From: Heterodontus francisci | Taxonomy: Eukaryota | Reading direction: 5' to 3' | Assembly (NCBI RefSeq): GCF_036365525.1 | Contig: NC_090413.1 | Coordinates: 28,968,262 to 29,032,261, forward strand | Length of the DNA stretch: 64,000 bases | Shown here: positions 1,687 through 61,873 of the stretch, in pieces | Layout of the letters: every line of letters begins with the position of its first letter | Position numbering within the stretch: position 1 is the first letter of the stretch | The notes under the pieces: generated by a model | The model's database searches: none | The model's input: the letters and a program-made list of their open reading frames with translations, nothing else | Told to the model about the DNA's origin: nothing | Program-made: the position numbers and the translations under genes

Positions 1687-1754
1687 TTAAGCAGGAGACA
1701 GAGACACAGAGAGAGACACACACAGAAATTTAGGGAAGAATTCCCAGAATGGGG

Positions 1755-2935: not shown

Positions 2936-3033
2936 CTAGTCATTCCTCTTCAAGTAATAAATGATGGCTCCTGTTGCAAGGACAAATATGGCCACCACTG
3001 ATACACTTACTGCAGCTATGATAGCTGTCATAT
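2936..3033 (-). pseudogene. Orphan duplicated TM/cytoplasmic exon of ICAM/VCAM-like gene A
   Basis: Acceptor ...cctcacAG at 3034-3035; reads (D)MTAIIAAVSVSVVAIFVLATGAIIYYLKRND*. TGG->TAG at 2936-2938 relative to the copy at 43401. The upstream Ig exon was not duplicated. Confidence 0.8.
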
Positions 3034-4227
3034 CTGTGAGGAAAAATGGAAGTTGAATAAATGATTTGCAAAACTGTATTTGAATAATCTTTTTTCAAAA
3101 TACCACAATTTGCTCAGCGTTTTTAATCTTCTCATGTCAGATACATATTTTGTTCCATGTGTGTCCAAGCAGAACTACATCTTTGCAATTTGAAATTCTA
3201 CTGCAATCACGAGAGAGCAATGACCATTCAGTTCAGTTTAGATTAGGAATTGATTGCAGTAGTTGTGCTGACATCCCTTCATTGGCATCATTGACTTCTT
3301 CTGCCTTTGAGTTCTTGTCCCCAACAAAATACTTGCTGTTCAGATCCCTCCTGTTCTCTGTTACAGTTCCACCTTCAACTAAAATCTGAAGGCTTCAAAC
3401 TTGAGCACACCTGGAATATATAGTGTGTGATCTTGTTATTCACCACAAAACCTGACTTGACTCTGAGCCCTGACCCAGATTCACTCTGCAGCTTCTGCCC
3501 TTCCCTTTGTCACTCTCACTACTTCCATGGGACCACATCCACCTGCCTCAATATCCTCTCTACCTAACTTCTGATCTTTCAACTACCTTTACTGTCCCTG
3601 TGATTTCTGATGTCATAAAGGACTCCATTTGTTCCCATGCAAAACCTCCATTAGCCCTTCCACCAAAAGCATGCACTTGCTCCATCGTCTTTTCTAACTA
3701 CTGCTCCATCTTCAGTTTCCTTTCCTCCCTAGGTTCCTTACACTTACCATTTCCACCAGCTCCATGTCTGCATCTTCCACAACTACCTACTTGAATATTC
3801 GATCCTATTTCCACCCTGCCCATAGCACTGACATAGTCACAGAGTGCTAAGACTAAGACAGTGACAAAGGTGTGTTATCCCTCTTTGCCCTCCTCAGCCA
3901 CTCTGTGTTACTCAACATAGTTTACCTCCTCTACCAGTTCTGCTGTGCAATCCAGCTTTGTATTACTGATCTTGCTTGGTTCTATCCGACCTGTTCTGAT
4001 GCGAGGTTTTTTTTTATCTCATCCTTACACACCCATCTCTTAAGTCCACCAAGAATCCATCCGTGGTTCTCTCTTCTTCCTCAAATACATAATTCCCCTC
4101 AATAACATCCATAACCACAGGTTTTACAAATCATTTATTCAACTTCCATTTTTCCCCACAGCTCTCATAGAATGATGCTATAGGAATGGAACTAAAGAGG
4201 GACAAAATAGTTCTCCAAGATGGAATT

Positions 4228-5160
4228 CTAGAACGGTTAACTACAGAAGGCAACTATTCGGCCCATCGAGCACATGCCAGCTCTCTGCAAGAGTAATTTA
4301 GGTAGTCCCACTCACTGGCCCTTTCCCTGTAGCCCTACAAATCTTTTGCCTTCACAGCTCTCCAATTCCCTTTTGAAAGCCTTGATTGAATCTGCCTCCA
4401 GCACCATTTCAGATCATAACCATTCACTGCAAAAAAGGTTTTCCTTATGTTGCCTTTGGTTCTTTTGTTAATCACTTTAAATCTGTGCCCTCTGGTTCTA
4501 GACCCATATCCACTGTTCAGACCCCTCATGTTTTTGAACACCTCTATCAAATTTCCTTTCAACCTTATCTTCTCTAAGGAGAACAAGCCAAGCTTCTCCA
4601 ATTTATCCTTGTAATTGAAATCTCTCATCCCTGGAACCATTCTCATAAATCTTTTTTGCATCCTCACTAATGCCTTCATATCTTTCCTAAAGTGTGGTGC
4701 CCATAACTGGACACAATATTCCAGTTGAGTCTGAACCAGTTTTTTTTATAAAGGTTTGTCATCACTTCCTTGCTTTTGCACCTTATGCCTCTATTTATAA
4801 AACCCAGGATTCCATATGCCTTCTTAACCACTTTTTCAATCTGCCCTATCACTTTCAATGATTTGTGCACATATACCCTCTGGACCCTCTGCTCCTGCAC
4901 CCCCTTCAGCATTGTATCCTTTAGTCTATATTGCCTCCCTTCATTCTTCCTACCAAAATGTATCACTTTTCACTTCTATTCATTAAATGTTATCTTTTCA
5001 TCCATTCCGTCAGCTTGTCTATGTCTTCTTGGAGCCTATCACTATGCTCCTTACAGTTCACTATATTTCCACATTTTGTGTCATTGCAAATTTTGAAATT
5101 GTGCCCTGGACACCCAAATCTAAGTCATTAATATAAATCAAGAAAAGCAGTGGTCCTAGT
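4228..5160 (-). mobile_element. CR1 LINE 3' fragment
   Basis: ORFs 4335-4679 and 4676-4966 with HFGRKN, KAYGILGFINRGI and LGLFSLEK motifs. Confidence 0.88.
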
Positions 5161-5893
5161 TGTCAGATTAGTAAGTGGTGTAATGAGAATGGCAGGAGGT
5201 GATAAACAATAAATGCCAGCAGCACTACCCATGGCTGCTGTCAGAAAAATATAGTTGGCCTAATGAGCGTGCAAGGTAGTTGTCTGCTCATGTTTCAGTG
5301 TTGTATCAGTTTGTAATAAATTATGATCAGGTTCTTCATGTCTACAAATACCTTCATTTTCTCTCCAACTTCCCTAAATCTTTTCTGTCTGTCTACAAAA
5401 ACCATCTCTTTGATCAGGCTTTTGGTCACTTTCCCCTAACTTTTGCACTCAGGCTTGCATCTGTTCATTTCTTCCTGTAAGCAGGAGAATGTTTTGCTAC
5501 ATTAAAACTGCTGTATCAATTAATTTGTTGTGAGAGGATAGATCTTGCATCCTCCCACTAGACATCAGTGTTCCAACATTCAGAACCATCGTGTTGCTAC
5601 ACTTCTGTCATTCTCAATACAGCCACTTGGATACAAATAATATTGGTGCAGATTCATTCTCTGTTCATTGTTCTTTCTTCTATTGAGCTGGTCTTAAAGA
5701 TTATGGTAATTGTAGAGATAACGTGAGTCTTAGCACCCTTTGATTAACTGCTTCATTAACTACCATTTGTAGTTAGCGAACATCAAAAATATACTGTAAG
5801 TTTCTAGTTGATAATTGCGAAATTTAATAGTGAATAGACCGATACTTGGAATATTACTTAAACTGCAGGAGACTAAGGATGACCAAGTGAGTC

Positions 5894-6537: not shown

Positions 6538-8205
6538 ATTTTTAAAAATTTGTTCATGAGATGTGGGCATCGCTGGCTAGGCCAGCATTTATTGCCCATT
6601 CCTAACTGCCCTTGAGAAGGTGGTGGTGAGCTGCCTTCTTGAACCGCTGCAGTCCTTGGGGTGCAAGTACAGCAACAGTGCTGTTAGGGAGTTCCAGGAT
6701 TTCGACCCAGGTACAGTGAAGGAACATGATATAGTACCAAGTCAGGATGGTAGCTTGGAGGGGAATTTGCAGGTGGTGGTGTTCCCATGCATCTGCTGCC
6801 CTTGACCTTCTAGGTGGTAGAGGTCAGGGGTTTGGAAGATGTTGTCAAAGGAGCCATGGTGAGTTGCTGCAGTGCATCTTGTAGATGGTACACACTGCTG
6901 CCACTGTGCATCGGTGATGCAGGGAGTGAATGTTGAACAAAGAACAAAGAACAAAGAAAATTACAGCACAGGAACAGGCCCTTCGGCCCTCCAAGCCTGC
7001 GCCGATCCAGATCCTCTATCTGAACATGTCGCCTATTTTCTTAGGGTCTGTATCTCTTTGCTTCCTGCCCATTCATGTATCTGTCCAGATACATCTTAAA
7101 AGACGCTATCGTGCCCTCGTCTACCACCTCTGCTGGCAACGCGTTCCAGGAACCCACCACCCTCTGCGTAAAGAACTTTCCACGCATATCCCCCCTAAAC
7201 TTTTCCCCTCGCACTTTGAACTCGTGACCCCTAGTAATTGAATCCCCCACTCTGGGAAAAAGCTTCTTGCTATCCACCCTGTCTATACCTCTCATGATTT
7301 TGTACACCTCAATCAGGTCCCCCCTCAACCTCCGTCTTTCTAATGAAAATAATCCTAATCTGCTCAACCTCTCTTCATAGCTAGCGCCCTCCATACCAGG
7401 CAACATCCTGGTGAACCTCCTCTGCACCCTCTCCAAAGCATCTACATCCTTTTGGTAATGTGGTGAACAGAACTGCACGCAGTATTCCAAATGTGGCCGA
7501 ACCAAAGTCTTATACAACTGTAACATGACCTGCCAACCCTTGTACTCAATACCCCGTCCGATGAAGGAAAGCATGCCGTATGCCTTCTTGACCACTCTAT
7601 TGACCTGCGTTGCCACCTTCAGGGAACAATGGACCTGAACACCCAAATCTCCCTGTCCATCAATTTTCCCCAGGACTTTTCCATTTACCGTATAATTGCT
7701 CTTGAATTGGAACTTCCAAAATGCATCACCTCGCATTTGCCCTGATTGAACTCCATCTGCCATTTTTCTGCCCAACTCTCCAATCTATCTATATTCTGCT
7801 GTATTCTCTGACAGTCCCCTTCACTATCTGCTACTCCACCAATCTTAGTGTCGTCTGCAAACTTGCTAATCAGACCACCTATACTTTCCTCCAAATCCTA
7901 ACTTGAAGGTGGTGGATGGGGTGCCAATCAAGACGGTGGCTTTGTCCTGAATGGTGTTGAGCTTCTTGAGTGTTGTTGGAGCTGCACGCATCCAGGCAAG
8001 TGGAGGGTATTCCATCACACTCCTGACTTGTGCCTTGTAGATGGTGGACAGGCACTGGGGAGACAGGAGGTGAGTTACTCGCCGCAGAATTCCCAGCCTC
8101 TGAACTGCTCTTGTAGCCGCAGTATTTATATGGCTGGGCCAGTTCTGTTTCTGGTTCAATGGTAATCCCCAGGATTTGATGGTTGGGGTTTCAGTGATGG
8201 TAAGG
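6538..8205 (-). mobile_element. 3' fragment of the tRNA-headed LINE family, split by a CR1 insertion
   Basis: ORF 7866-8237 has LSTIYKAQVRSVMEY; 3' tail matches 54090-54160. Confidence 0.85.
6938..7902 (-). mobile_element. Young 5'-truncated CR1/HER1 LINE nested in the previous element
   Basis: FADD and LVRPHLEYCVQF motifs; (ctttgtt)n tail; TSD ttgaa at 6933-6937/7903-7907. Confidence 0.9.
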
Positions 8206-8456
8206 ATATTGGGGACAAAATCCCTCCATTCTTTCAAACTGTTGCGATGCGGAAGGGGGTTTATATTTTTTACCTGGATAGAAGAGATAAAATGTGCCAG
8301 TCTTCTTTATCCATATTTATCATTTAATCTTGTAAACTGAACAACAGCCTTATTGTAATAAAAGCAAAATACTGCGGATGCTGGAAATCTGAAACAAAAA
8401 CAAGAAATGCTGAATTCACTCAGCAGGTCTGGCAGCATCTGTAGAAAGAGAAGCAG

Positions 8457-8493
8457 AGTTAACGTTTCGGGTCAGTGACCCTTCTTCGGAACT
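8457..8493 (-). ncRNA. Minimal hammerhead ribozyme (CCGAAGA core variant) in the inverted Penelope arm
   Basis: Exact reverse complement of 12392-12428. Confidence 0.6.
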
Positions 8494-9579
8494 GACAAAT
8501 ATTAGAAAAGTCACAGATTATAAACAAGTGAGGTGGGGGTTGGGCAAGAGATAACAAAGGAGAAGGTGCAGATTGGACCAGGCCACATAGCTGACCAAAA
8601 GGTCACAGAGCAAAGGCAAACAATATGTTAATGGTGTTTTGAAAGACAAAGCATTAGTACAGATTAGGTGTGAATATACTGAATATAGAACATCAGCAAG
8701 TGCAAACCTGAAGAAAAACAACCTGAAAAAAACAGTGGGTAAGCAAACTGAACAAACTAAGATGAAATGAAATAAATGCAAAAAATGTAAAAAGGAATGC
8801 AAAAAAAAGGAAGAAAAAATAACTAAAAATGACTAAAAATGAAAGTAAAGTGGGGGGCTGTCATGCTCTGAAATTATTGAACTCAATGTTCAGTCCGGCA
8901 GGCTGTAGTGTGCCCAATCGGTAGATGAGATGCTGTTCCTCGAGGTTGCGTTGATGTTCACTGGAACACTGCAGCAATCCCAGGACAGAGATGTGAGCAT
9001 GAGAGCAGGGGGGAGTGTTGAAATGGCAAGCAACCGGAAGCTCAGGGTCCTGCTTGCGGACTGAGCGGAGATGTTCCGCAAAGCGGTCACCCAGTCTGCG
9101 CTTGGTCTCCCCAATGTAGAGGAGACCACACTGTGAGCAGCGAATACAGTATACTACATTGAAAGAAGTACAAGTAAATCGCTGCTTCACCTGAAAGGAG
9201 TGTTTGGGGCCTGGGATAGTGAGGAGAGAGGAGGTAAATGGGCAGGTATTACACCTCCTGCGATTGCAAGGGAAGGTGCCCTGGGACGGGGACGAGGTGG
9301 TGGGGGTAATGGAGGAGTGGACCAGGGTGTCGCGGAGGGAACGATCCCTTCGGAATGCTGACAGGGGAAGGGAGGGGAAGATGCGACTGGGAGTGGCATC
9401 ACGCTGGAGGTGGCGAAAATGGCGGAGGATGATCCTTTGGATATGGAGGCTGGTGGGATGAAAAGTGAGGACAAGGGGAACCCTGTCACGGTTCTGGGAG
9501 GGAGGGGAAGGGGTGAGGGTAGAGGTGCGGGGAATGGGTCGGACACGGTTGAGGGCCCTGTCAACCTACACTCAGTGCT

Positions 9580-12024
9580 ATGCGCCGCCATATGCACACA
9601 CTGGACCTCTCTCTCCAGCAGCACCGTCTCACCTTATCTCAAATCTGTTCTACTCCGCAGTTTCATCTCATCTTACGTCTCATCCGACGCATTAACAAAA
9701 AACTTTTTTTCTTCCTTTCAGGTGTTAAGGAACGCAAGCTCCAGCAGCTGATGGGGACTAATGCCCCTCCAGATCCTCCTTCCGCTTCACTTCCCTCTGA
9801 CCCCACCCCTTCTGATCTGACCCCTTGCCGTGTATTCACTATACCCTCTGACCTCCCCCTCTCTGATGCTGAGCGTTCTGTACTCAGCAAAGGACTCAGT
9901 TTTATCCCCTTACGCCCCCACCTCAATGAATTTCGCGCTCGGCATGACGTTGAGCTCTTCTTCCGTCGCCTCCGCCTCCGGGCTCACTTCTTTGACCAGG
10001 AGTCCTCCCCCCGACCAGCAGACCCATTCACCCGCCTCCAGTATTCTCCCTCTACCTGGACCCCTCACCCTGGCCTCTTACCCGCTCTTGATCTCTTCAT
10101 TGAAAACTGTCGGCGAGACATTGGTCGTCTCAATTTCTCTGCCCCCCTCACTCACTCTAACCTGTCCCCCTCTGAACTTGAGGCACTCCGTTCTCTCAGG
10201 TCTAACCCCGACATGGTCATCAAACCTGCAGACAAGGGTGGTGCTGTTGTTGTATGGCGTACCGACCTCTACCTTGCAGAAGCTCAACGCCAACTCACAG
10301 ACACCTCTTCCTACCTCCCTCTGGACCATGACCCCACCACCGAACATCAAGCCACCGTCCAAAGGACTGTCACTGACCTCATCTCCTCTGGAGATCTTCC
10401 CTCTACAGCTTCCAACCTCATAGTCCCGCAACCCCGGACAGCCCGCTTCTATCTCCTTCCCAAAATCCACAAACGGGACTGTCCCGGCAGACCCATTGTG
10501 TCAGCCTGCTCCTGCCCAACTGAACTTATTTCTTCCTATCTAGACTCTATCTTTTCTCCGCTGGTGCAGTCTCTTCCCACCTACATCCTTGACTCTTCTG
10601 ACGCCCTACGTCATTTTGACAATTTCCAGTTTCCTGGTCCCAACCGCCTCCTCTTCACTATGGACGTCCAATCGCTCTACACCTCCATCCCCCACCAGGA
10701 TGGTTTGAGGGCTCTCCGCTTCTTCCTGGAACAGAGGCCCAACCAGTCCCCATCCACCACCACCCTCCTCCGCCTGGCTGAACTTGTTCTCACATTGAAC
10801 AACTTCTCCTTCAACTCCACGCACTTCCTTCAAGTAAAAGGTGTCGCTATGGGTACCCGCATGGGTCCTAGTTATGCCTGTCTTTTTGTGGGATATGTCG
10901 AGCATTCTTTGTTCCAGTCCTACTCAGGCCCCCTCCCCCAACTCTTTTTCCGGTACATTGATGACTGTATCGGTGCCGTTTCCTGCTCCCGCCCCGAACT
11001 CGAAAACTTTATCAACTTTGCTTCCAATTTCCACCCTTCTCTCACCTTTACATGGTCCATCTCTGACACTTTCCTTCCCTTCCTCGACTTCTCTGTCTCC
11101 ATCTCTGGGGATAGGTTGTCTACCAATATCCATTATAAGCCCACTGACTCCCACAGCTACCTCGACTACACTTCTTCACACCCTACCTCCTGTAAGGACT
11201 CCATTCCATTCTCCCAGTTTCTCCGTCTCCGACGCATCTGCTCTGATGATGCTACCTTCCATGACGGTGCTTCTGATATGACCTCCTTTTTCCTCAACCG
11301 AGGATTTCCCCCCACTGTGGTTGACAGGGCCCTCAACCGTGTCCGACCCATTCCCCGCACCTCTACCCTCACCCCTTCCCCTCCCTCCCAGAACCGTGAC
11401 AGGGTTCCCCTTGTCCTCACTTTTCATCCCACCAGCCTCCATATCCAAAGGATCATCCTCCGCCATTTTCGCCACCTCCAGCGTGATGCCACTACCAGTC
11501 GCATCTTCCCCTCCCTTCCCCTGTCAGCATTCCGAAGGGATCGTTCCCTCCGCGACACCCTGGTCCACTCCTCCATTACCCCCACCACCTCGTCCCCGTC
11601 CCAGGGCACCTTCCCTTGCAATCGCAGGAGGTGTAATACCTGCCCATTTACCTCCTCTCTCCTCACTATCCCAGGCCCCAAACACTCCTTTCAGGTGAAG
11701 CAGCGATTTACTTGTACTTCTTTCAATGTAGTATACTGTATTCGCTGCTCACAGTGTGGTCTCCTCTACATTGGGGAGACCAAGCGCAGACTGGGTGACC
11801 GCTTTGCGGAACATCTCCGCTCAGTCCGCAAGCAGGACCCTGAGCTTCCGGTTGCTTGCCATTTCAACACTCCCCCCTGCTCTCATGCTCACATCTCTGT
11901 CCTGGGATTGCTGCAGTGTTCCAGTGAACATCAACGCAACCTCGAGGAACAGCATCTCATCTACCGATTAGGCACACTACAGCCTGCCGGACTGAACATT
12001 GAGTTCAATAATTTCAGAGCATGA
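9580..12024 (+). CDS. Penelope-like reverse transcriptase + GIY-YIG endonuclease (814 aa, probably 5'-truncated)
   Basis: KPADKG, LPKIHK, DVQSLYTSI, GVAMG and RYIDD RT motifs; CNRRRCNTC linker; VVY...YIGET...RFAEH...LEEQ...GLN GIY-YIG domain; no internal stops. Confidence 0.95.
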   Translation: MRRHMHTLDLSLQQHRLTLSQICSTPQFHLILRLIRRINKKLFFFLSGVKERKLQQLMGTNAPPDPPSASLPSDPTPSDLTPCRVFTIPSDLPLSDAERSVLSKGLSFIPLRPHLNEFRARHDVELFFRRLRLRAHFFDQESSPRPADPFTRLQYSPSTWTPHPGLLPALDLFIENCRRDIGRLNFSAPLTHSNLSPSELEALRSLRSNPDMVIKPADKGGAVVVWRTDLYLAEAQRQLTDTSSYLPLDHDPTTEHQATVQRTVTDLISSGDLPSTASNLIVPQPRTARFYLLPKIHKRDCPGRPIVSACSCPTELISSYLDSIFSPLVQSLPTYILDSSDALRHFDNFQFPGPNRLLFTMDVQSLYTSIPHQDGLRALRFFLEQRPNQSPSTTTLLRLAELVLTLNNFSFNSTHFLQVKGVAMGTRMGPSYACLFVGYVEHSLFQSYSGPLPQLFFRYIDDCIGAVSCSRPELENFINFASNFHPSLTFTWSISDTFLPFLDFSVSISGDRLSTNIHYKPTDSHSYLDYTSSHPTSCKDSIPFSQFLRLRRICSDDATFHDGASDMTSFFLNRGFPPTVVDRALNRVRPIPRTSTLTPSPPSQNRDRVPLVLTFHPTSLHIQRIILRHFRHLQRDATTSRIFPSLPLSAFRRDRSLRDTLVHSSITPTTSSPSQGTFPCNRRRCNTCPFTSSLLTIPGPKHSFQVKQRFTCTSFNVVYCIRCSQCGLLYIGETKRRLGDRFAEHLRSVRKQDPELPVACHFNTPPCSHAHISVLGLLQCSSEHQRNLEEQHLIYRLGTLQPAGLNIEFNNFRA

Positions 12025-12391
12025 CAGCCCCCCACTTTACTTTCATTTTTAGTCATTTTTAGTTATTTTTTCTTCCTTTTTTTTGCATTCCTTTTTACAT
12101 TTTTTGCATTTATTTCATTTCATCTTAGTTTGTTCAGTTTGCTTACCCACTGTTTTTTTCAGGTTGTTTTTCTTCAGGTTTGCACTTGCTGATGTTCTAT
12201 ATTCAGTATATTCACACCTAATCTGTACTAATGCTTTGTCTTTCAAAACACCATTAACATATTGTTTGCCTTTGCTCTGTGACCTTTTGGTCAGCTATGT
12301 GGCCTGGTCCAATCTGCACCTTCTCCTTTGTTATCTCTTGCCCAACCCCCACCTCACTTGTTTATAATCTGTGACTTTTCTAATATTTGTC

Positions 12392-12428
12392 AGTTCCGAA
12401 GAAGGGTCACTGACCCGAAACGTTAACT
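12392..12428 (+). ncRNA. Minimal hammerhead ribozyme (CCGAAGA core variant) in the Penelope 3' region
   Basis: agtt-CCGAAGA-a-gggtca-c-tgaccc-GAAAC-GTT-aact; helix I agtt/aact; helix II gggtca/tgaccc. Confidence 0.6.
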
Positions 12429-12489
12429 CTGCTTCTCTTTCAACAGCCTTATTGTATTTTCTATCTGCGTGCTGACAAAGCACAAACTT

Positions 12490-17931: not shown

Positions 17932-18306
17932 TTTTTTTGATTCATTTGTGGGATCTGGCATAGCTGGCTAAGCCAGCATTTGTTGCCCATCCATAATTGC
18001 CCTGAACTGAGTGGCTTGCTCGGCCATTTCAGAGTCAACCACATTGCTGTGGATCTGGAGTCACATGTTGACCAAACCACCAGGTAAGGTGATAGATTTC
18101 CTTCCCTAAAAGGACATTAATGACCAGATGGGTTTTCATGACAATATCACTGAGACTAGCTTTCAATTATTAACTATATTTATTGATTAATTAAATTTAA
18201 ATTCCATCAGCTGCCATGGTGGGTTGAACCCATGTCACCAGAAAACTAGCCTGGACTTCCAGTTTTCTAACTCAGTGACATTACCACTAGGCCACTATCT
18301 CTCCCC
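17932..18306 (-). mobile_element. Bipartite SINE: 5' tRNA-like head and UTR of the LINE at 50951 fused to its 3' tail
   Basis: Reverse complement reads head (tagtggtaatgtcact...gggttcaaccc), then ...gcaagccactcagtt|cagggcaattatggatgggcaacaaatgctgg. Confidence 0.8.
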
Positions 18307-19951: not shown

Positions 19952-21484
19952 ATGTAAATTTCATTAGAATAAAAAATTAAAACTTGAAATTGAATAACAC
20001 GAAGCTCAAATATTCTTCAGATCTTCCTGGGTTTTTTTGGTGCTCTCCAGATGTCAGTGCTCAGAATAAAACTGACTTCTCTGTGAAAACTCAGTGTCAG
20101 CATCAAACACTCCCAGGTCAAATAAAAAGCAGGATAAAGACAGAGAAATTCTCCCTGTACTCTGCGGACAAAAGCAAAAATTCTGAGTGCCACTTTTGAG
20201 AAATCTCCAAGTGATTTCTGCTTTACTCTTTCCTGTTTCTGTATAGCTGATTGAGCACCAATCTGAGAATGGAGAAGGGTGGTCTTCGGTCAAAGGGTTC
20301 TAAGAGGAGTTTTACAGCTCTCCGGTTAGATGGAATTATTGAACTATTGTTGAAATTTTACAATGCAATATTAGTAATTAATTGATTAATAAAGTGTTTG
20401 ACATTCCTATGCTATTTTAACAAAGGTGTTAACCTGTTGAAATAAACATGATGCAGCTGATTTCTAAATAAACAATCCAATGAACACTACAAATAACAAA
20501 CATATCAATACAATATATTTATCTGTTATATTTTTAAATCACTGAGTCAAAGCATTCCATTTCAAATTACCTTCAAAACTCATATGTCAGCCTCTGGTAA
20601 TGGGAAATCCCATCGGAAGACTGTCAACAGTTACCTACTGTACCAGTCATGCCTGTATTTGTCACTTTGATTGATATTTATAACGCTGAATGACCTGTCA
20701 TGCAACGTTAGTGCGAGCCCAGTCGTGAAACTATTTTTGTGTTTGAAGTCAGCTGTGTGTAAGCCTGTGGCTCCATTACAGATTCATTGGGTGGCAATGT
20801 AGAATAAATATATTAAAAAGCCTTCAGATAGCAGCCTTTTTAAACCTCCCTGCACTGAGGCCTTTCCCCCAAAGTTGTCATTGGATTCCCCCCCTGAACG
20901 AAATGGTGCCCCCCTCAGATATTGCATCAGGTTCCATATCCTCAATATTCCTGCACAGAAAATGGGAACTAAGAATCCACAAGGCATAGGTTCCTTACAC
21001 TGCATGTTTCCACCAAACAGAACACTACACTCCAGGTTGAACTCAGGGATGCTCATTCCCATGAAGCTCTCGCTGCTCCCTGTCTCCCGGCTGTGGATTC
21101 CTCATTGCAATGTGAGCTTAAATTCCCAGTGATTCTCCATTTCTCTGCTGCATTCTCATTGACAAAGCCCTTAACCCACTTTACCCACCTGCAAATACAC
21201 CCTCTTGCCTCTGTCTCTTAGATCTATTCAAAAGTCAAATTACACAAGAATGTTAAAGAGACACACATCAGCAGTAACAACAGGAGGGTGGGCTAGATGA
21301 ACCTCTAATTTGTTTCCAGTCTGTCACTTTCTCTGCTTCTAAGTTTTTCTATTTTACCATCACAAAATCGTATCAGACAAAATAGGATCATTTCTCCCCA
21401 GAGTATTTCTCCGTGAGTGCTGGACAATTACATCAGTATTTCTGCAGTATTTATGAACTAGATGTTAGCTATTCAGTCTTCCGT

Positions 21485-22495
21485 GTTGTTGGACGTCAAT
21501 CATCTGAGCTCCAGGACATCACTGCAGGAGTTCCTCAGGGTAGTGTCCTAGGCCTAACCATCTTCATTAATGACCTCCTTCAGTCATAAGGTCAGATGTG
21601 GGATGTTCACTGATGATTGCACAATGTTCAGCACCATTCGTGACTCCTCAGATATTGAAGCAGTCCGTGTAGAAATGCAGCAAGACCCGGACAATATCCA
21701 GGTTTGGGCTGATAAGTGGCAAGTAACATTCACGCCACACAAGTGCCAGGCAATGACTAGCTCCAACAAGAGAGAATCTTACCATCTCCCCTTGACATTC
21801 AATGGCATTACCATCACTGAATCTCCCACTATCAACATCCTAGGGGTTACCATTGACCAGAAACTGAACTGGAGTAGCCATATAAATAGCGTGGCTACAA
21901 GAGCTGGTCAGAGGCTGGGAATCCTGCATTGAGTAACTCACCTCCTGACTCCCCAAAGCCTGTCCACCATCTACAAGGCACAAGTCAGGAATGTGATGGA
22001 ATACTCTCCACTTGCCTGGATGGGTGCAGCTCCAACAACACTCAAGAAACTCGACACCAAACAGGACAAAGCAGCCCGCTTGACTGGCACCCCATGCACA
22101 ACATTCACTCCCTCCACCACCGACGCACAGTGGCAGCAGTGTGTACCATCTACAAGATGCACTGCAGCAACACACCAACGCTCCTTCGACAGCACCTTCT
22201 AAACCCGCAACCTCTACCAATTAGAAGGACAAATGCATGGGAACACCACCACCTGCAAATTTCCCTCCAAGTCACACACCATCCTGACTTGGAACTATTT
22301 CGCTGTTCCTTGACTGTCACTGGGTCAAAATCCTGGAACTCCCTTCCTGACAGCACTGTGGGTGTACCTAACTCACATGTACTGCAGTGGTTCAAGAAGG
22401 CAGCTCACCATCACCTTCTCAAGGGCAATTAGGGATGGGCAATAAATGCTGGCATAGCCAGCGACGTCCACATCCCAAGAATAAATACAAAAAAA
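21485..22495 (+). mobile_element. 3' fragment of the tRNA-headed LINE family
   Basis: MFTDDCTMF and MEYSPLAW motifs; same tail as 54090-54150. Confidence 0.88.
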
Positions 22496-22943
22496 CATGT
22501 TTCTCTGTGTATCATAATCTCCATTGAAAATGCTACTGTAGCATTCTTCATCTCCAATTAGTATCCCTTGTGTTACAACAGGCCAGTGTGTCTCAGCTTC
22601 CAATTTCTCCTCGCTTGTCCATGTGGAAAAACCTGGTCTTCATTTCGTATCTCACCCAATGGTCTGGTCAGGACATGTATCTTGTTATATGGGGGACTCA
22701 GGACACATGTTCACATGATTGCACTCTGTGGTCAGTAATGGACAGTGTCTCCACACAGCCCCGTCCTGTGTTCTGCATTCTGATCAACCTTGGAGATAAC
22801 AAGAGCCACTGAAAAGCAGGATAAATGTGAGACCAATTCTGTTTGTTCCGGACTAAGAGGAGAGTTGGGATGAGAGTTTCATTGGTCTCCATTTGAAATA
22901 AAAAACCTCACTAACTATTTGTAACCAAAATGATGCAACTTAC

Positions 22944-23421: not shown

Positions 23422-24887
23422 TGTTACAATCAGGTGAGGAGAGGTCGAAAGGCTCCCCTCTTGTCCCTCTCCTTGTTTGACTGCAACTGTGTATATTCCT
23501 TTTTAAACAGTGGATGTGTTTCCCAATTCAGTGAGTATTTACCCTTTATGTGCTATGATCATAAAATAATTTTTTTTTTAGTTTTTTTTGAGTTTAAACA
23601 AGAAAGAAGTTAGTTTATTTTACTTAAGAATCTAAACCCGATCAAAGTGAAAATAATAAATTACACTCCAGCTTTCACTCATTCACACAGACACACCCAG
23701 GAGAATAACACACATACAAACAGGTTATAGAGTAATGAAGAAGTGTTTTGTTGGATTAGAATCCAGAACAAATAAAAGTAATATACAGTCTGTGGGGTCT
23801 GGTAATTCAGTTGTCCTTTGGATGAATTCACGGTTCTGAAGCCTCTGGCTGGTAGAAGTGCACTTGCAGCTGGTTCAGGGTTTTCTTGGAGACAGTGATC
23901 TTGGTGGTCTTCTCCCCCTGGATTCTCTGTCTGTAGCAATGATAGACCTGGATGTCCCACAGTCGCAGACCGGTTTTGAAATTTGTAATGTTACCGGGAG
24001 AAAAGGAGAGAGAGGGATACAAACCCACTTGGGTCTTGAGCTGGTTAGCTCTCAAAGCTTGTCTGCTCCGTGAAACTAAAAATTCCGTGTAACAATAAAT
24101 TCCACGTTCACTCAGACTGGGGAGACTGTCACATGGTTCACTCAGTATTCCTTTTTTCCTTTAATGAGGTCTGAAGACTGAGAATCCCAAATCTCTCTCA
24201 GGTTATATTGTTTTAATGTTTACCCCCTGGAGATACATCTTCACTAGTGAATGCTCCAAGGTGGCTTTGGATGTCCTGCTATCAAGGATTATACTGGATA
24301 ATTTACTCAACTGTCCAAGCCATTGTTCTGGATGGGAGCTTTTGAGACATGTGTCTCCACTTCAACGTTAGGGGCGGCACAGTGGCGCAGTGGTTAGCAC
24401 CGCAGCCTCACAGCTCCAGCGACCCGGGTTCAATTCTGGGTACTGCCTGTGTGGCGTTTGCAAGTTCTCCCTGTGTCTGCGTGGGTTTCCTCCGGGTGCT
24501 CCGGTTTCCTCCCACATGCCAAAGACTTGCTGGTTGATAGGTTAATTGGCCATTATAAATTGCCCCTCATATAGGTAGGTGGGAGGGAAATATAGGGACA
24601 GGTGGGGATGTGGTAGGAATATGGAATTAGTGTAGGATTATTATAAATGGGTGGTTGATGGTCGGCACAGACTCGGTGGGCCGAAGGGCCTGTTTCAGTG
24701 CTGTATCTCTAAACTAAACTAAACGTCCTGGAATGTGAGGTATTTCAATCCAAATTGTGGTGGCCAACTTAGCTGCCGTTATTTAAATGTTAAATGTAGG
24801 ATTCTTGCTTTCCTTTTTCAAAGTTTAATGCAGGTTTCCAAATGATAAATTAAAAGTCCTCATTCAGCATAGCATGTTTTCTTGACA
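23422..24887. mobile_element. Solo LTR-like element 1 (contains an HE1 SINE)
   Basis: Starts TGTTACAATCAGGTGAGG, ends TTCTTGACA; colinear with 25061-26069. Confidence 0.7.
24370..24721 (+). mobile_element. Full-length HE1-type V-SINE
   Basis: A box tggcgcagtgg, B box ggttcaattc, V-core gtttgcaagttctccctgtgtctgcgtgggtttcctccgg, CR1/HER1-like tail, (taaac)n; TSD aacgt 24364-24368/24722-24726. Confidence 0.92.
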
Positions 24888-28240: not shown

Positions 28241-28524
28241 CTTGCAAATACTTTGTTAACCCATTCAAACTAAGCTTTGTGCACGGCCTTGCTGGTTAAA
28301 GGATTTGCAGTAATTTACTGAAACACTTTAGACAAATGAGAAAACTGCATATTTGAAGTGGGTCCAAGATGAACAATTCTTATCCAACACATTTTGTGTT
28401 ATGGATAAAACAGGAGCTAAATCAGAAGATTCCCTAAATTGCTTCCCACTGTTTATTCTCTACAAATTATAGATAATTAACCCATTCTTAAAAAGAGAAC
28501 ATTTCTTGTTCAAGTGGAACTTAC

Positions 28525-28839
28525 AGTAAGTTTGCAGAGTCACAGAGGAGTTTGTGATTGGTTTTGTGGTGTTTAAACCCAAGTCCACCTCTGCCAAGCA
28601 GGTGTACTCCTGTCCATCACCTGACATACTTGCAGTGAATTGGAAGATGTTCCTCAGTCTTTTATCATCATCCGGGAAACCTTCTTCTCCTGTGAAATTC
28701 CTCTGAACAATCTCACTCCCTCTCAGCCATGTGAGTTTGAGTTTATTGTTTGGATAGACCCTCGGACCAATACACTCCAGACTATATGTCTTGTTAACTT
28801 CCAGCACTTCAGGAGGTGATGTAATGTTTAACTCTCGAT
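28525..28839 (-). CDS. Gene B Ig domain 2 exon
   Basis: ttttaacAG acceptor, T|GTAAGT donor, 315 nt; NRELNITSPPEVLEVNKTYSLECIGPRVYPNNKLKLTW...DGQEYTCLAEV. Confidence 0.92.
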
Positions 28840-29229
28840 CTGTTAAAAGAAGTTAACAGGAATCATTGAAACAATATGTATCTGAACACAACCAGTTTAC
28901 TCCTCTTTCCCCTCAACATATGTACATTTCACTCAGCAAGCAAATCGTCCATGTGTGCAGTAAAAGTTATCCCAAAAAAATGCCTGTGGTCCAACAAATC
29001 CCATTAATGTTCTTTTTCCATGATTTTCCTCAATCTACACTAAACCAGCAGCATTTTTCTAGGATCCCGATTAAAAGCACTGAAATTAGCACTGATAGTT
29101 TAATTTTTTAGTCATTGCCATCCGATAACAGAATGATACAGCAGTTTCTGTGCTATAAATCTCTATGAGAAGGAGGCTATTCTGCCCATCCTGCCTGTGC
29201 TGGTCCTCTGTACAACCATCCTAACCAGG

Positions 29230-29950: not shown

Positions 29951-31821
29951 GAAAATTAGTGAGTTATACATATGGCCACGAACGCTGTGAAATTACTTGG
30001 CAATCCAAATGTTGGAATGCAATTTATAGACGCAATTCCATCAGAAAAACATATTTACATTCAAGAATTCCTGCTTTTGCAAATTCAAGCACATTCACTT
30101 CAGTTTGACTCCAGACAAAGTTGTGCCCAGTTTGGGATCCCATTTCCAGCTATTGCCATTTGTTTCAGTGATCAACACTGAGGGGCAGTTACCTTACATT
30201 AAAATAATTCACACTGAGTGGGTATGGCGGTGGTGGAGGAAAAAAATCTTACCTGAAAGGATGTGGTGCTGGTGAGTCGCTTTCTTGAATCGTTGCATTT
30301 TCAGTGGTGAAGGCACTCCCATATATCTGATCTCAGCTGATGTTAGAGCTTTAGATGCGAATGCTATCAGCTTTCCTTCTTGTACCAGGGCTGCTCCCTT
30401 TCCTTTTGTAGAAGCATCTACTTGCAGAGTGATGGGTTTGCTGCGTTGTCGTGTGACCAACTTGTCTCCTTGGATATTACTCCTTTGCGTTTACTGAAAC
30501 TCCTCTCATGTGACTCTGACTATTGGTACTCAACATCTTTCATCAGCTCTTGTAGGTTTGCTGTGTGCTCTGGCATGTGAGGGATGAAAGAGTTTATGTA
30601 CTGGATCAAGCCAAGCAAACTCTTCAGCTCTCTCTTGTCTTGGAGCTTCCATCTCAGAGATAGTTGTGACTTTTTCAGGACTCAGCTTGACTCCATCAGG
30701 TGTGTACACCATTCCAAAGAACTGGCATTCTGTCACCTTTACAATGCATTTGTTTGCTTGATCCCAGCTTTTCTGGTTCTCTCCATGGCTTCATGTAGGT
30801 GGTAGTTGTGGTCTTTCTCATCTACACCATCAACCGGGGTATCATCAGGTATGCCGATTGCTCCTTTGCATCTCCTGTGTGTCTCATCTAATTTCTTCTG
30901 GAACACATCCTGGCTCACTTTAAGGCCAAAAGGTAGATGCAGGAATTTGTACCGTCCAAAGAGTGTGTTGAATGTTGTCAACACCGAAGGGTCCTCACCA
31001 GGCTTCACATTCCAGTAGCTGTTTCTGGCATCAAGCTTGCTGAAAACTTTTGCCCCTGCCAGTGCTGGTATGATCTCTTCCAGTGTTGGAGAAGAGTAGT
31101 GATTCCTCTATATTGCTTGATGAAGATCGTTAGGAGCCAGACAAACTCGTAGCTATCCATTTGGCTTCTTTTTCACCATGATGGAATTTACCCAATCTGT
31201 CGGCTCTGTGACTCTGGCAATCACTTTATTTTTTTCCATCTCTGATGTTCTCTTTCAAGCTTTCCTTTTAGCTCTATTGGTAATTTACGTGGGGGTGAAT
31301 CACTGGTTTCTTCTCTGGGTCAATGTGATGTGATACTCAAAGTCTTCAAAGCATCCAAGCGTCTCACCAAAACACTCTGGATGCAGTTGGACCAGATCTT
31401 CCTTGCTTCTGATCGGAGGGTGCTTTTCAATGGGTGTACTACCTTCAACCTTCATTGATGCCTCCTTCATCTTACAGTTTACCAAGATCAGCTGCAGCTC
31501 TTGACAACTGTTTAACCCCAGGATAGCTGAACCATCCGTTTCAGTGATGTAGAATATACAGTTACCGTATTTTCCTTTGTGCGTCCCTCGGATTTGGGTC
31601 ATTCCCAGGTTGAATCTCAGTTCCATCATAGACTGTCAGCATGGTGTTGCTTGGTTTCAGAGCATCTTTATTTCGGTAACCATTCTCTTTCAAATTTTCG
31701 GGAAGGATCTTCTGGTAGAGTCTGAGCAGGGTAATGTTACTCAGTGTTCCAGGATCAAGGTTCAGCTTCAGGTTTATGTTTATGGGCTTACCTCTCACCT
31801 TCTTCCTGATCCATAACATTC

Positions 31822-32588
31822 ACGGCACACAAGTGCCAGGAAATATCATCTCAAACAAGAGGGAATCTAACCATCTCCCCTTGATGTTCAATGGCATTAC
31901 CATCACTGACTCCCCCACTGTCAACATCCTGGGGGCTATCATTGACCAGAAACTGAACTGGACCATCCACATAAATAATGTGGCTACAAGAGTATATCAG
32001 AGGCTGGAAATTCTGCGGCAAGTAACTCACCTCCTGTCTCCCCAGTGCCTGTCCACCATCTACAAGGCACAAGTCAGGAGTGTGATGGAATACTCTCCAC
32101 TTGCCTGGATGGGTACAGCTCCAACAACACTCAAGAAGCTCAACACCATCCAAGACAAAGCAGCCCGCTTGATTGGCACTCCATTCACCACTTTCAACAT
32201 TAAGTCCCTTCACCACCAACACACAGTGGCAGCAGTGTGTACCATCTATAAGATGCACTGCAGCAGCTCACCAAGGCTTCTTCAGCAGGACCTTCCAAAC
32301 CTGTAACTTCTACCACACAGACGCACAAGGGCAACAGATGCATGGGAACACCACCACCTGCAAGTTCCCCTCCAAGACACACAACATCCTAACTTGGAAC
32401 TATATTGCCGTCGCTGGGTCAAAATCCTAGAACTCCTTTCCTAACAGCAGTGTGGGTATACTTACACCTCAAACACTAGAGTGGTGCAAGAAGGCAGCTC
32501 ACCACCATCTTCTCATGGGCAATTTGGGATGGGCAATACATGTTAACCTCGCCAGCGGTGCACACATCCCATGAACGAATAAAAAAAA
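31822..32588 (+). mobile_element. 3' fragment of the tRNA-headed LINE family nested in the Gypsy element
   Basis: ISNKRESNHLPL and IYKAQVRSVMEYSPLAW motifs; A-rich tail. Confidence 0.88.
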
Positions 32589-43288: not shown

Positions 43289-43401
43289 TTATTTTCCTGT
43301 TTTCCAGTCATTCCTCTTCAAGTAATAAATGATGGCTCCTGTTGCAAGGACAAATATGGCCACCACTGATACACTTACTGCAGCTATGATAGCTGTCATA
43401 T
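43289..43401 (-). CDS. Gene A terminal exon: TM helix + truncated cytoplasmic tail
   Basis: cctcacAG acceptor; (D)MTAIIAAVSVSVVAIFVLATGAIIYYLKRNDWKTGK*; the frame stays open past the stop (KLQNTK...ESKL*) to 43214. Confidence 0.8.
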
Positions 43402-50755: not shown

Positions 50756-50950
50756 ATTTCTTTCTTACAGTATGGTTGCACAGCTCACCCAAAAACAATT
50801 ATTTGCATGTATAACCCCTTCCTCCACTTTAACAGCATGATATCGCCACATCTTTTATTTCAGCTGGCCTATGCCACTCCTTAACCTTCAGCTAATTTAC
50901 TTAATCCTGTTGAGGGAAGAATTGAGAAACCGTCAAAGGGAGCATTGCTG

Positions 50951-53900
50951 GGTAGGCGGTAGCGTAGTGGTATTATCACTGGACTAGTAACCCAGAGACC
51001 CAGGGTATTCCTTTGGGGACATGGGTTCGAATCCCACCACAGCAGAAGGTGGAATTTGAATTTAATTAATAAATCTGGAATTAAAACTAGTCTAATATTG
51101 GCCATGAAACCATTGTCGATTGTGGTAAAAACCCATCTGGTTCACTAATGTCCTTCAGGGAAGGAAATCTGCTGTCCTTATCTGGTCTGGTCTACATGTG
51201 ACTCCAGACCCACACCAAGGGGTTAACTCTTACATGCCCTCTGAAATGGCCCAGCAAGCCACTCAGTTGTATCTAACCGCTACAAATTCTATAAAAAGGA
51301 ATGAAACCAGACGGACCACCCGGCATCGACCTAGGCACCGGAAAGTCCTCCTTACTAACATCTGGGGGCTTGTGCCAAAGTTGGGAGAGCTGTCCCGCAG
51401 ACTAGTCAAGCAACAGCCTGACATAGTCATACTCATGGAATCATACCTTACAGACAATGTTCCAGCCACTGCCATCACCATCTTCGGGTACGTCCTGTCC
51501 CACTGGCAGGACAGACCCAGCAGAGGTGGTGGCACAGTGGTATACAGTAGGGAGGGAGAACCGTGGGAGTCCTCAACATCAACTCCGGACCCCATGAAGT
51601 CTCATGGCATCAGGTCAAACATGGGCAAGGTAACCTCCTACTGATTACCACCTACCGCCCTCCCTCAGCTGATGACTCAGTACTCCTCCATGTTGAACAC
51701 CACTTGGAGGAAGCACTGAGGGTGGCAAGAGCACAAAATGTACTCTGGGTGGGGGACTTCAATGTCCATCACCAAGAGTGGCTCGGTAGCACCACTACTG
51801 ACCGAGCTGGCCGAGTCCTAAAGGACATAGCTGCTAGACTGGGTCTGCGGTAGGTGGTGGGGGAACCAACACGAGGGAAGAACATACTTGACAGTATTGG
51901 TAGGAGTGACCACCACACAGTCCTTGTGGAGACGAAGTCCCGCCTTCACATTGAGGATACCGTCCATCGTGTTGTGTGCCACTATCACCGTGCTGAATGG
52001 GATAGATTTCGAACAGATCTAGCAATGCAAAAGTGGGCATCCATGAGGCGCTGGGGGCCATCAGCAGCAGCAGAATTGTACTCAACCACAATCTGTAACC
52101 TCATGGCCCGGCATATCCCCCACTCTACCATTACCATCAAGCCAGGAGACCAACCCTGGTTCAATGTAAAGTGAAGGAAGGCATGCCAGGAGCAGCACCA
52201 GGCATACCTCAAAATGAGGTGTCAACCTGGTGAAGCTACAACCCAGGACTACTTGCATGCCAAACTGCGTAAGCAGCGTGCGATAGACAGAGGTAAGCGA
52301 TCCCATAACCAACGGATCAGATCTCAGCTCTGCAGTCCTGCCATATCCAGCCGAGAATGGTGGTGGACAATTAAACAACTAACTGGAGGAGGTGGCTCCA
52401 CAAATATCCCCATCCTCAATGATGAGGGAGCCCAGCACATAAGCGAGAAAGATGAGGCTGAAGCATTTGCAACAATCTTCAGCCAGAAGTGCCGAGTTGA
52501 TGATCCATCTCGGCCTCCTCCTGAAGTCCCCAGCATCACAGATGCCAGACTTCAGCCAATTCGATTCACTCCACGTGATATCAAGAAACGACTGAAGGCA
52601 CTGGATACTGCAAAAGCTATGGGCCCTGACAATATTCCGGCAATAGTACTGAAGACCTGTGCTCCAGAACTTGCGGTGCCCCTAGCCAAGCTGTTCCAGT
52701 AGAGCTACAACACTGGCATCTACCCTGCAATGTGGAAAATTGCCCAGGTATGTCCTGTACACAAAAAGCAGGACAAATCCAACCCAGCCAACTACCGCCC
52801 CATTAGCCTACTCTCAATCATCAGTAAAGTGATGGAAGGTGTCATCAACAGTGCCATCAAGCGCCACTTGCTTAGCAACAACCTGCTCAGTGACTCTCAG
52901 TTTGGGTTCCGCCAGGGCCACTCAGCTCCTGACCTCATTACAGCCTTGGTTCAAACATGGACAAAAGAGCTGAACTCAAGAGTTAAGGTGAGAGTGACTG
53001 CCCTTGACATCAAGGCAGCATTTGGCAAGGTATGGCATCAAGGAGCCCTAGCAAAACTGAGGTCAATGGGAATCAGGGGGAAAACCCTCCGCTAGCTGGA
53101 GTCATACCTAGCGCAAAGGAAGATGGTTGTGGTTGTTGGAGGTCAATCATCTGAGCTCCAGGACATCACTGCAGGAGTTTCTCAGGGTAGTGTCCTAGGC
53201 CCAACCATCTTCAGCTGCTTCATCAATGACCTTCCTTCAATCATAAGGTCAGAAGTGTGGATGTTCGCTGATGATTGCACAATGTTCAGCACCATTCGTG
53301 ACTCCTCAGATACTGAAGCAGTCCGTGTAGAAATGCAGCAAGACCTGGACCATATCCAGGCTTGGGCTGATAAGTGGCAAGTAACATTCGCACCACACAA
53401 GTGCCAGGCAATGACCATCTCCAACAAGAGAGAATCTAACCATCTCCCCTTGACATTCAACGGCATTACCATCGCTGAATCCCCCGCTATCAACATCCTA
53501 GGGGCTACCATTGACCAGAAACTGAACTGGAGTAGCCATATAAATACCGTGGCTACAAGAGCAGGTCAGAGGCTTGGAACCCTGAGGCGAGTAACTCACC
53601 TCCTGACTCCCCAAAGCCTGTCCACCATCTACAAGGCACAAGTCAGGAGTGTGATGGAATACTGTCCACTTGCCTGGATGGGTGCAGCTCCAACAATACT
53701 CAAGAAGCTCGACACCACCCAGGACAAAGCAGCCTGCCTGATTGGCACCCCATCTACAAACAGTCACTCCGTCCACCACCGACGCACAGTGGCAGCAGTG
53801 TGTACCATATACAACATGCACTGCAGCAATGCACCAAGGCTCCTCAGACAGCACCTTCCAAACCCGCGACCTCTACCAACTAAAAGGACAAGGGCAGCAC

Positions 53901-54164
53901 ATCCATGGGAACACCACCACCTGCAAGTTCCCCTCCAAGTCACACACCATCCTGACTTGGAACTATATCGCCATTCCTTCACTGTCGCTGGGTCAAAATC
54001 CTGGAACTCCCTTCCTAACAGCACTGTGGGTGTACCTACCCCACATGGACTGCAGCGGTTCAAGAAGGCAGCTCACCAGCACCTTCTCAAGGGCAATTAG
54101 GGATGGGCAATAAATGCTGGCCTGGCCAGTGATGCCCACATCCCATGAATGAATTTTTAAAAAA
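50951..54164 (+). mobile_element. Near full-length single-ORF non-LTR retrotransposon (AP-endonuclease + RT; CR1/L2 group) with a tRNA-like 5' head
   Basis: A box tagcgtagtgg, B box ggttcgaatcc; ORF from ~51246 (MAQQATQL) through EN (TNIWGL, PDIVILMES, GDFNVH, SDH) and RT (NYRPISLLS, QFGFR, ALDIKAAF, QGSVLGP, FADD); one frameshift and 4 stops. Confidence 0.9.
50960..51035 (+). promoter_or_regulatory. Type-2 Pol III internal promoter (A box/B box) at the LINE 5' end
   Basis: TAGCGTAGTGG matches TRGCNNARYGG; GGTTCGAATCC is a perfect B box. Confidence 0.7.
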
Positions 54165-61333: not shown

Positions 61334-61554
61334 AGTTTAGCCGTTACAAACACAAAATCTTGAGAAATTGTTTTTCCAGATTTCTAATCCTAAAAGGTTC
61401 GTACGCACGCCGGACTTGAGTTAAAACGAATCGTTTTTAGAATGACCGGAAAATAAAGAGACATAGCTACAGGCAGGTTTAAAGGATATGAGCCTCCTCC
61501 TTTTGTAAAAGGTCCTCAGGGCTGTTCTGCCAGTAATCCTTTTGTACCACATTC

Positions 61555-61873
61555 AGTTTGTAGGATGTGGGCGTCGCTGGCTAGGGCAGCACTTATTACC
61601 CTTGAACTGAGTGGCTTGCAAGGCCATTTCAGAGGGCATTTTAAGAGTTACCCACATTGCTGTGGGTCAGGCGAGACCAGGTAAAGACGGCAAATTTCCT
61701 TCCCTAAAGCACATTAGCGAACCACATTTCATAGTCATCATTAGATTGGCTTTGTAATTCTAGATTTTATTAACTTAATTCAAATCTCACCATTTCACGC
61801 ATGTCCCCGGAGCATTAGCCTGAGCTTTGGATTACGAGTCCAGTGACATTATCACTATGCCACCGCCTCCCCT
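61555..61873 (-). mobile_element. Second copy of the bipartite tRNA-head SINE
   Basis: Reverse complement: ggggaggcggtggcatagtgataatgtcactggac ... gcaagccactcagtt|caagggtaataagtgctgccctagccagcgacgcccacatcc. Confidence 0.8.

What the first reader, a model, noticed from the sequence alone, without database searches (positions are those of the whole stretch)
17932..18306. Bipartite SINE is an internal-deletion derivative of the tRNA-headed LINE
Seen: two short elements (17932-18306 and 61555-61873, both minus) consist of the LINE's first ~320 bp (head, UTR and first codons, up to gcaagccactcagtt) joined directly to its last ~75 bp (c(a)agggcaatt...cccacatcc). Both copies have the same junction. 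Inference: promoter, body and tail all come from one autonomous parent, rather than a tRNA head being grafted onto a LINE tail. The alternative is that the LINE captured the SINE as its 5' UTR. Either way parent and derivative are visible in one window.
Basis: partly seen in the sequence, partly recalled or inferred. Interest (0 to 1): 0.7.

Follow-up and report, generated by a model that had tools for sequence, protein, structure and literature searches.

The report
Shark LINE that sheds ready-made SINEs
These two short repeats are the start and the end of a common shark-and-ray jumping gene joined together, most likely by loss of its middle; that gene begins with a tRNA-like head and lacks the T-runs that stop RNA polymerase III, so it is likely a protein-coding element read by the polymerase meant for small RNAs.

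Summary
Observation confirmed. Both SINEs join the first ~320 bp of the window's 3.2-kb LINE to its last ~75 bp at one junction. The LINE matches published elasmobranch Zenon (CR1 group, no ORF1); all seven published shark and ray consensuses start with the same tRNA-like head, unremarked in that paper's main text.

Deletion is the better polarity. Four successive head/tail types occur in both LINE-type and SINE forms. 25 of 115 headed loci are further 5'+3' joins that keep LINE-only bases, at about 18 junctions. 0 of 60 census heads carry a foreign tail.

Corrections: the shared part is not 'first codons' (the family has ATG-GCC-TAG there), the window LINE is not the direct parent, and head swapping also occurs.

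The larger point: 11 of 14 full-length copies have no TTTT on the sense strand, unlike 32 of 32 related elements and 20 of 20 other reverse-transcriptase ORFs in this genome. This fits Pol III transcription of a coding retrotransposon, untested.

Zenon deletion derivatives are known in moths and butterflies, without a tRNA head. The scan noted this before on other DNA (23 findings, at least 11 genomes).

The parts
17932..18306 (-). SINE copy 1, junction type A; A1-type head, mosaic A1/A2 tail, short A-tail
18005..18306 (-). head shared with the LINE (tRNA-like region plus body)
17932..18004 (-). LINE-derived 3' end (last codons, stop, hairpin, A-tail)
61551..61873 (-). SINE copy 2, junction type A; A2-type head and tail, with later internal deletions
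50950..54160 (+). decayed full-length Zenon-type LINE, young subfamily; no TTTT until 54154 at its 3' end
50950..51270 (+). LINE head shared with the SINEs
50960..50970 (+). Pol III box A-like motif (consensus recalled)
   Evidence: read
51024..51034 (+). Pol III box B-like motif (consensus recalled)
   Evidence: read; ARAGORN calls this region a tRNA in 9 of 13 other LINE copies, not in the window copy
51246..51254 (+). ATG-GCC-NNN in frame with the ORF; CAG in this copy, TAG in the family majority
51246..54100 (+). broken single ORF: endonuclease then reverse transcriptase, no ORF1
54088..54160 (+). LINE 3' end kept by junction-A SINEs

Best explanation
The two short elements consist of the 5' head and the 3' tail of an elasmobranch Zenon LINE and most likely arose by internal deletion of that LINE, whose tRNA-like head likely serves as an RNA polymerase III promoter for the whole 3.3-kb coding element. 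Shown: shared head, abutting junction, one LINE lineage carrying the head through four subfamilies, many other 5'+3' joins, no sense-strand TTTT. Inferred: the reverse transcriptase starts on the 3' hairpin and sometimes jumps to the 5' part of the RNA; any product that keeps the head and the ~75-nt tail is at once a transcribable, mobilisable SINE; the shortest join (A) amplified most and is kept in step with the LINE either by re-forming or by homologous template switching between LINE and SINE RNA. Also inferred: the ORF is translated without a normal start, by read-through of or re-initiation after ATG-GCC-TAG.
For: Headed LINE is a family: of 29 other loci picked by a LINE-only stretch, 22 reach the tRNA start, 5 keep part of the head and 2 are cut after it; 28 of 29 loci picked with an old copy also have it. 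Seven of seven published elasmobranch Zenon consensuses (5 species, one a ray) begin with it. Majority heads pair up: old LINE vs SINE-B 3 differences, A1 vs A1 0, A2 vs A2 3, young vs young 2-3; between strata 7-33. Two tail sites follow the same pairing. The ORF-only tree gives the same ladder with shrinking end branches. 25 of 115 loci with LINE-only bases after the head jump to the 3' end, at about 18 junctions; one junction recurs at 6 loci; junction B is its own family. Census of the first 60 head ends on contig C1: 39 LINE body, 16 junction A, 5 other joins, 0 foreign tail. Junctions A and B appear in contigs of organisms B and D, a C-like junction in D. TTTT: none in 11 of 14 copies; at least 2 in 32 of 32 relatives; 88 in 22.8 kb of other RT ORFs against 4 in 48.4 kb of family ORFs; 0 of 1224 non-satellite 3.2-kb windows are TTTT-free; old copies share no TTTT site; depletion is specific to T runs.
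Against: The identical junction A occurs in three strata (A1, A2, young), which repeated independent deletion explains poorly; recombination must be added. 4 of 6 long A1-headed LINE copies have younger bodies, so heads do move onto LINEs, possibly from SINE RNA. Only 2 long copies are concordant A1 LINEs, and the A1 and A2 LINE-type sets were picked with patterns that hold diagnostic bases, so those pairings are partly circular. In the head tree young LINEs nest inside SINE-A (bootstrap not settled), which taken alone fits capture. TTTT absence is one lineage, not 14 samples: per copy P is 0.08-0.17 against dinucleotide shuffles, and old and young ORFs differ by only about 0.06 per site. The tRNA-like head does not fold better than shuffles (z -1.0, -1.3) and Rfam gave no tRNA hit on the window copy. 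No data on the transcribing polymerase.
Confidence: 0.75

Rival explanations
1. The SINE came first (tRNA head and body grafted on a Zenon tail) and the LINE captured its head and body as a 5' UTR.
For: Young LINE heads nest inside SINE-A in the head tree. Chimeric copies with an older head on a younger body exist, one switching within the last ~35 nt of the head. Related elements from metagenomes show no tRNA or box B upstream (0 of 44 scanned for box B; no ARAGORN call in 80 loci at default or 95% threshold, 2 weak calls inside the matched coding range at 90%), and hagfish and coelacanth Zenon consensuses lack the head by eye, so the head was acquired at some point. Zenon is a reported partner of ordinary SINEs in bivalves.
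Against: Capture would have to cut the SINE within a few bases of its body/tail border. It does not explain about 18 other junctions holding LINE-only bases. The oldest LINE stratum already has the head, and so does the ray consensus.
Confidence: 0.1
2. The short copies are independent post-insertion deletions of LINE copies, not a mobile family.
For: Many one-off junctions exist, and some of these may be post-insertion events.
Against: Junction A is shared by 30 of 30 fetched loci and 16 of 60 census loci; junction B has 40 scored matches; SINE subfamilies carry their own diagnostic bases.
Confidence: 0.02
3. The SINE derives from the LINE by deletion, but the LINE itself is made by Pol II (internal promoter in the body, or read-through from flanks); the tRNA-like head matters only for the SINE, and the low T content is ordinary strand bias.
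For: LINEs are described as Pol II transcripts (PMC10886601, PMC5786205 passages). A single TTTT-free copy is not significant against dinucleotide shuffles. Pol III RNA is uncapped, which makes translation hard (established knowledge).
Against: 22 of 29 young copies start at the tRNA-like 5' end. Box B and the variable-arm stem are kept in LINE heads, with two paired changes between strata (read). T-run depletion is not seen in relatives of similar base content or in other LINEs of this genome.
Confidence: 0.3

Closest known systems
Elasmobranch Zenon LINEs (CarCar_, RhiTyp_, ScyCan_, HypSab_Zenon-1, SquAca_Zenon-1/2/3; Stuart et al. 2026, PMC13343379)
   Same: Same first 400 letters by eye, including both search motifs; 2.9-3.3 kb; no ORF1; poly-A tail.
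   Different: The main text has 0 occurrences of 'tRNA' and 'polymerase III' and its one 'SINE' hit is in a cited title; the head, the TTTT absence and the SINE derivatives are not described there.
Persaeus, short internally deleted elements of lepidopteran Zenon (PMC6740152)
   Same: 5' and 3' ends of Zenon joined; repeated origins inferred from SIDE/LINE pairing in trees; microhomology and template jumping proposed.
   Different: Persaeus lacks tRNA homology and a Pol III promoter; here the parent carries one, so the deletion product is a SINE by the usual definition.
Bipartite RTE/Vingi derivatives and SINEs built on them (Bov-A/Bov-tA, WALLSI, CoeSINE4; PMC5786205)
   Same: 5' and 3' LINE parts in one short element.
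   Different: There the tRNA head is grafted on afterwards and the parent is held to be Pol II. RTE-1_DAn is mentioned as having a tRNA-like sequence, a possible precedent that I could not examine.
HE1 V-SINE / HER1 LINE of sharks and rays (named in PMC3747384 table, PMC4824008)
   Same: Same host group, tRNA head, LINE-shared tail.
   Different: The V domain is absent from this SINE by eye; another 350-bp family in the window has it.

Membership tests
Elasmobranch Zenon (CR1 group) | Sequence match to published consensus | tested here: met
   Two window motifs each hit 5 places in the supplement; first 400 letters agree by eye. Cells are cut at 400 letters, so no full-length alignment.
Elasmobranch Zenon (CR1 group) | Single EN+RT ORF, no ORF1 | tested here: met
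   Pfam Exo_endo_phos (below cut-off) and RVT_1; endonuclease begins about 45 codons after the head; length about 3.28 kb.
Elasmobranch Zenon (CR1 group) | Poly-A tail | tested here: met
   Short A-tails in young copies.
Elasmobranch Zenon (CR1 group) | RT tree placement in the Zenon clade | not testable with these tools
   No labelled reference RTs; nearest proteins are 44% identical and mostly unnamed.
tRNA-derived SINE (SINE2) | tRNA-like head with boxes A and B | tested here: met
   ARAGORN tRNA call in 9 of 13 LINE and 1 of 4 SINE loci; two old head types align to a genomic tRNA-Ser above 300 shuffles (script stopped after two groups). Parent tRNA not settled (Thr by anticodon, Ser-like long arm).
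tRNA-derived SINE (SINE2) | 3' tail shared with a partner LINE | tested here: met
   LINE tail hairpin z -2.2
tRNA-derived SINE (SINE2) | Amplified as a unit in high copy | tested here: met
tRNA-derived SINE (SINE2) | Pol III transcription | not testable with these tools
   Only contigs were available; they show no start, strand or polymerase.
Short internally deleted element (SIDE) of a LINE | Both termini from one autonomous parent, abutting | tested here: met
Short internally deleted element (SIDE) of a LINE | No Pol III head (as used to separate Persaeus from SINEs) | tested here: not met
   it forms like a SIDE but has SINE anatomy
V-SINE (HE1) | V domain in the body | tested here: not met
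   compared by eye with the V consensus in PMC6887750 Fig. S1
MetaSINE | 66-bp Meta domain after a tRNA-Thr-like head | tested here: inconclusive
   No Meta sequence could be read: the key supplement file was not searchable and other supplements gave no motif hit.

The most novel reading that the evidence does not exclude
Elasmobranch Zenon is an autonomous, protein-coding retrotransposon transcribed end to end by RNA polymerase III and translated without a cap or a normal start codon, through a conserved ATG-GCC-TAG-CAA signal; it produces complete tRNA-SINEs in one step, again and again, and swaps heads with them.
Probability: 0.5. Interest if true: 0.85.

Novelty: new variant of a known kind. 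Interest (0 to 1): 0.62.

Why it matters
The usual picture is that LINEs are Pol II and coding, SINEs Pol III and non-coding, and that SINEs are assembled from parts of separate origin. Here one element appears to be both, and it gives a one-step route to SINE birth that can be followed through four subfamilies. If Pol III makes the 3.3-kb coding RNA, how an uncapped Pol III transcript with a stop codon after its only early ATG is translated becomes a directly testable question.

Tried and rejected
V-SINE/HE1 identity, my first guess from recall: rejected. 'First codons' in the shared part: rejected as a family property; relatives show no like N-terminus by eye. A tRNA head as an ancient trait of the clade: not supported. 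Rfam: only sub-threshold chance matches. ARAGORN on the window: 0 genes. Target-site duplications of 4 nt or more: 1 of 17 young copies, so TSDs could not test insertion as a unit. RNA evidence: runs X15, X16 (guessed RNA) and X18 cover all 30 bins, but they are contigs, DNA may be in them, and no silent control was laid, so expression is not claimed. ESM Atlas gave no answer. A first TTTT background (153 of 1440 windows free) was driven by 6 satellite loci; both numbers are reported. Motif search of paper texts: 0 hits. Meta-domain lead: untested for lack of sequence. Look-up of earlier findings by sequence: nothing.

Full report
Observation. Self-comparison and alignments show the LINE head (50950-51268) followed directly by the LINE 3' end in both. 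The long element at 50950-54160 encodes broken endonuclease and reverse-transcriptase pieces. A search of the own genome (6.0 Gb) with the SINE gave 40 scored matches; all 30 fetched loci have the same abutting junction (the query biases this). In 40 arbitrary 10-kb stretches there were 12 head hits: 6 junction A or A-like, 1 junction B, 3 LINE, 1 at a stretch edge, 1 head fragment. That is roughly one per 33 kb.

The headed LINE is a family. A LINE-only query fetched 29 other loci; 22 reach the tRNA-like start, 5 keep part of the head and 2 are cut after it. Full-length copies are about 3.28 kb with short A-tails; 1 of 17 has a flanking repeat of 4 nt or more. With an old copy as query, 28 of 29 loci have the head. 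ARAGORN calls the head a tRNA in 9 of 13 LINE loci and 1 of 4 SINE loci, but not in the window; Rfam gave no tRNA hit. Nearest proteins are 44% identical, many of them single ORFs of about 935-1000 aa on 3-4 kb contigs. Of 80 related metagenome loci none has a tRNA call at default threshold, and none of the 44 scanned upstream has a box B.

Identity. A lead from earlier scan notes pointed to PMC13343379. I read its abstract, outline, keyword passages and supplement rows. Seven elasmobranch Zenon consensuses from five species, one a ray, begin with this head; six keep ATG-GCC-TAG. Hagfish and coelacanth Zenon starts do not resemble it by eye. The main text never mentions tRNA or polymerase III. 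Only 400 letters per consensus were visible.

Polarity. A head tree of 91 rows groups old LINE heads with SINE-B and nests young LINE heads in SINE-A (bootstrap unsettled; hits that did not reach the first 45 bases of the head were left out). Alone that is ambiguous. Pattern searches then found LINE-type junctions behind A1 and A2 heads (60 and 152 matches, reversed controls 0). Majority heads differ by 3, 0 and 3 bases within the old/B, A1 and A2 pairs and by 7-33 between strata; a young SINE set (7 loci) differs from young LINEs by 2-3. Two tail sites follow the same strata, with many copies unparsed (for example site 3240 is T in 10 of 24 A1 SINEs with 13 unparsed, A in 8 of 14 A2, G in 4 of 7 young; LINEs T in 2 of 2, A in 9 of 14, G in 15 of 19). 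An ORF-only tree of 59 copies (5 short ones left out) gives the ladder old, A1, A2, young, with end branches falling from about 0.12 to 0.03. Caveats: the A1 and A2 LINE-type sets were chosen with diagnostic motifs; most A1-headed hits are themselves short joins; only 2 are concordant long LINEs.

Deletion recurs. Of 115 loci with LINE-only bases after the head, 25 jump to the 3' end, at about 18 junctions between positions 327-522 and 2898-3188 of a reference copy; one junction recurs at 6 loci, and about 3 others may be secondary deletions of it. Junction B is a family. The first 60 exact head-end matches on contig C1 give 39 LINE bodies (one assigned by eye), 16 junction A, 5 other joins and no foreign tail; a few are local duplicates and the exact-match rule favours young copies. 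Junctions A and B also stand in contigs of organisms B and D, and a C-like one in D. Capture of this SINE by the LINE would need a cut at the SINE's body/tail border and explains none of the other joins.

Against a simple story. The same junction A occurs in three strata. 4 of 6 long A1-headed copies have younger bodies, one switching in the last ~35 nt of the head. So homologous switching happens, and junction A may have one origin with both ends refreshed. The window's two SINEs are of different strata (A1 with a mosaic tail, A2) and both are older than the window LINE.

Reading frame. The shared part holds ATG-GCC-TAG in frame with the ORF; TAG is the commonest codon in all seven groups, with 1-6 copies per group unparsed. 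Most young copies show no further in-frame Met in the roughly 110 codons translated. How the ORF is translated is inference only.

Pol III signature. Pol III stops at four or more T (established knowledge). Of 14 near-full-length copies (13 of the 20 fetched, chosen as uninterrupted, plus the window copy) 11 have no sense-strand TTTT and 3 have 1-3 at unshared sites, while A, C and G runs are normal. 32 of 32 long relatives (of 80 loci) have at least 2. Twenty other RT ORFs from this genome have 88 in 22.8 kb; family ORFs have 4 in 48.4 kb of redundant copies, against 38.5 expected from codon shuffles. Twenty older copies have 25 in 44.8 kb, no site in more than 2 copies. 0 of 1224 background windows are TTTT-free after dropping 6 satellite loci; 153 of 1440 with them. 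Limits: this is one lineage, and per-copy P is 0.08-0.17 against dinucleotide shuffles, which absorb the TT depletion itself. I formed and tested this idea before seeing the earlier notes (precede); their agreement is not independent evidence.

Literature seen. PMC6740152 (passages): Zenon deletion derivatives in Lepidoptera, multiple origins, no tRNA head. PMC5786205 (passages): bipartite derivatives from RTE, Ingi, Vingi and R2; parents held to be Pol II; RTE-1_DAn has a tRNA-like sequence. PMC10886601 (passages). PMC6887750 (first text part, first supplement part). PMC5499810 (parts 1-2; no supplement). PMC4824008 (passages, part 2; main supplement not searchable). PMC3747384, PMC4120745, PMC6685494, PMC11481361 (passages). 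PMC7245038 (part 1). PMC4758252 and PMC5804259 (supplement search only). The V-SINE paper was not held. Eight searches listed no paper whose title or abstract start describes a tRNA-headed or Pol III LINE in sharks. Repbase, Dfam and subscription journals were not searchable, so absence from print is not established, and unseen supplements bear on the Meta-domain question.

Verdict. Real; reader supported with amendments. The LINE is a known family and Zenon deletion derivatives are a known kind. The tRNA-headed, TTTT-free parent that yields SINEs directly is a new variant. Deletion polarity about 0.85, Pol III transcription about 0.6, interest 0.62.

Noticed in passing
window 24370-24718, 40872-41215, 41244-41574, 57699-58031, 48222-48537: A second ~350-bp SINE family with the V domain (HE1-like) and a different tail; two copies sit as an inverted pair at 40866-41580.
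   Followed up: partly
window 8439-12446: 823-aa ORF with RT and GIY-YIG hits (both below Pfam cut-off), Penelope-like, with a 1128-bp inverted repeat at 99.7% identity, so probably recent.
   Followed up: no
window 1415-5893 and 41785-46258; 28506-29012 and 54354-54860: Local duplications at 98% and 97% identity; SINE copy 1 also has a 97% twin about 48 kb upstream (L032).
   Followed up: no
G000:C34:12636761-12771776: Tandem array of about 50 matches to a tRNA-Ser(AGA) motif with a ~2.15-kb unit.
   Followed up: no
L332, L334, L337, L338: Chimeric LINE copies with an older head on a younger body.
   Followed up: partly
window 54154; L061, L065, L069, L074, L078: The only T-run of 4 or more in several young copies lies just before the A-tail (5 of 15 rows); it could be a terminator or tail decay.
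   Followed up: no
L096, L099, L104, L106, L109, L112: 6 of 40 arbitrary 10-kb stretches are almost wholly minisatellite, with 36-62 bp units.
   Followed up: no
window 21484-22503, 31814-32588, 6539-6937, 62772-63174, 48541-49413: Further 5'-truncated copies of the same LINE.
   Followed up: partly
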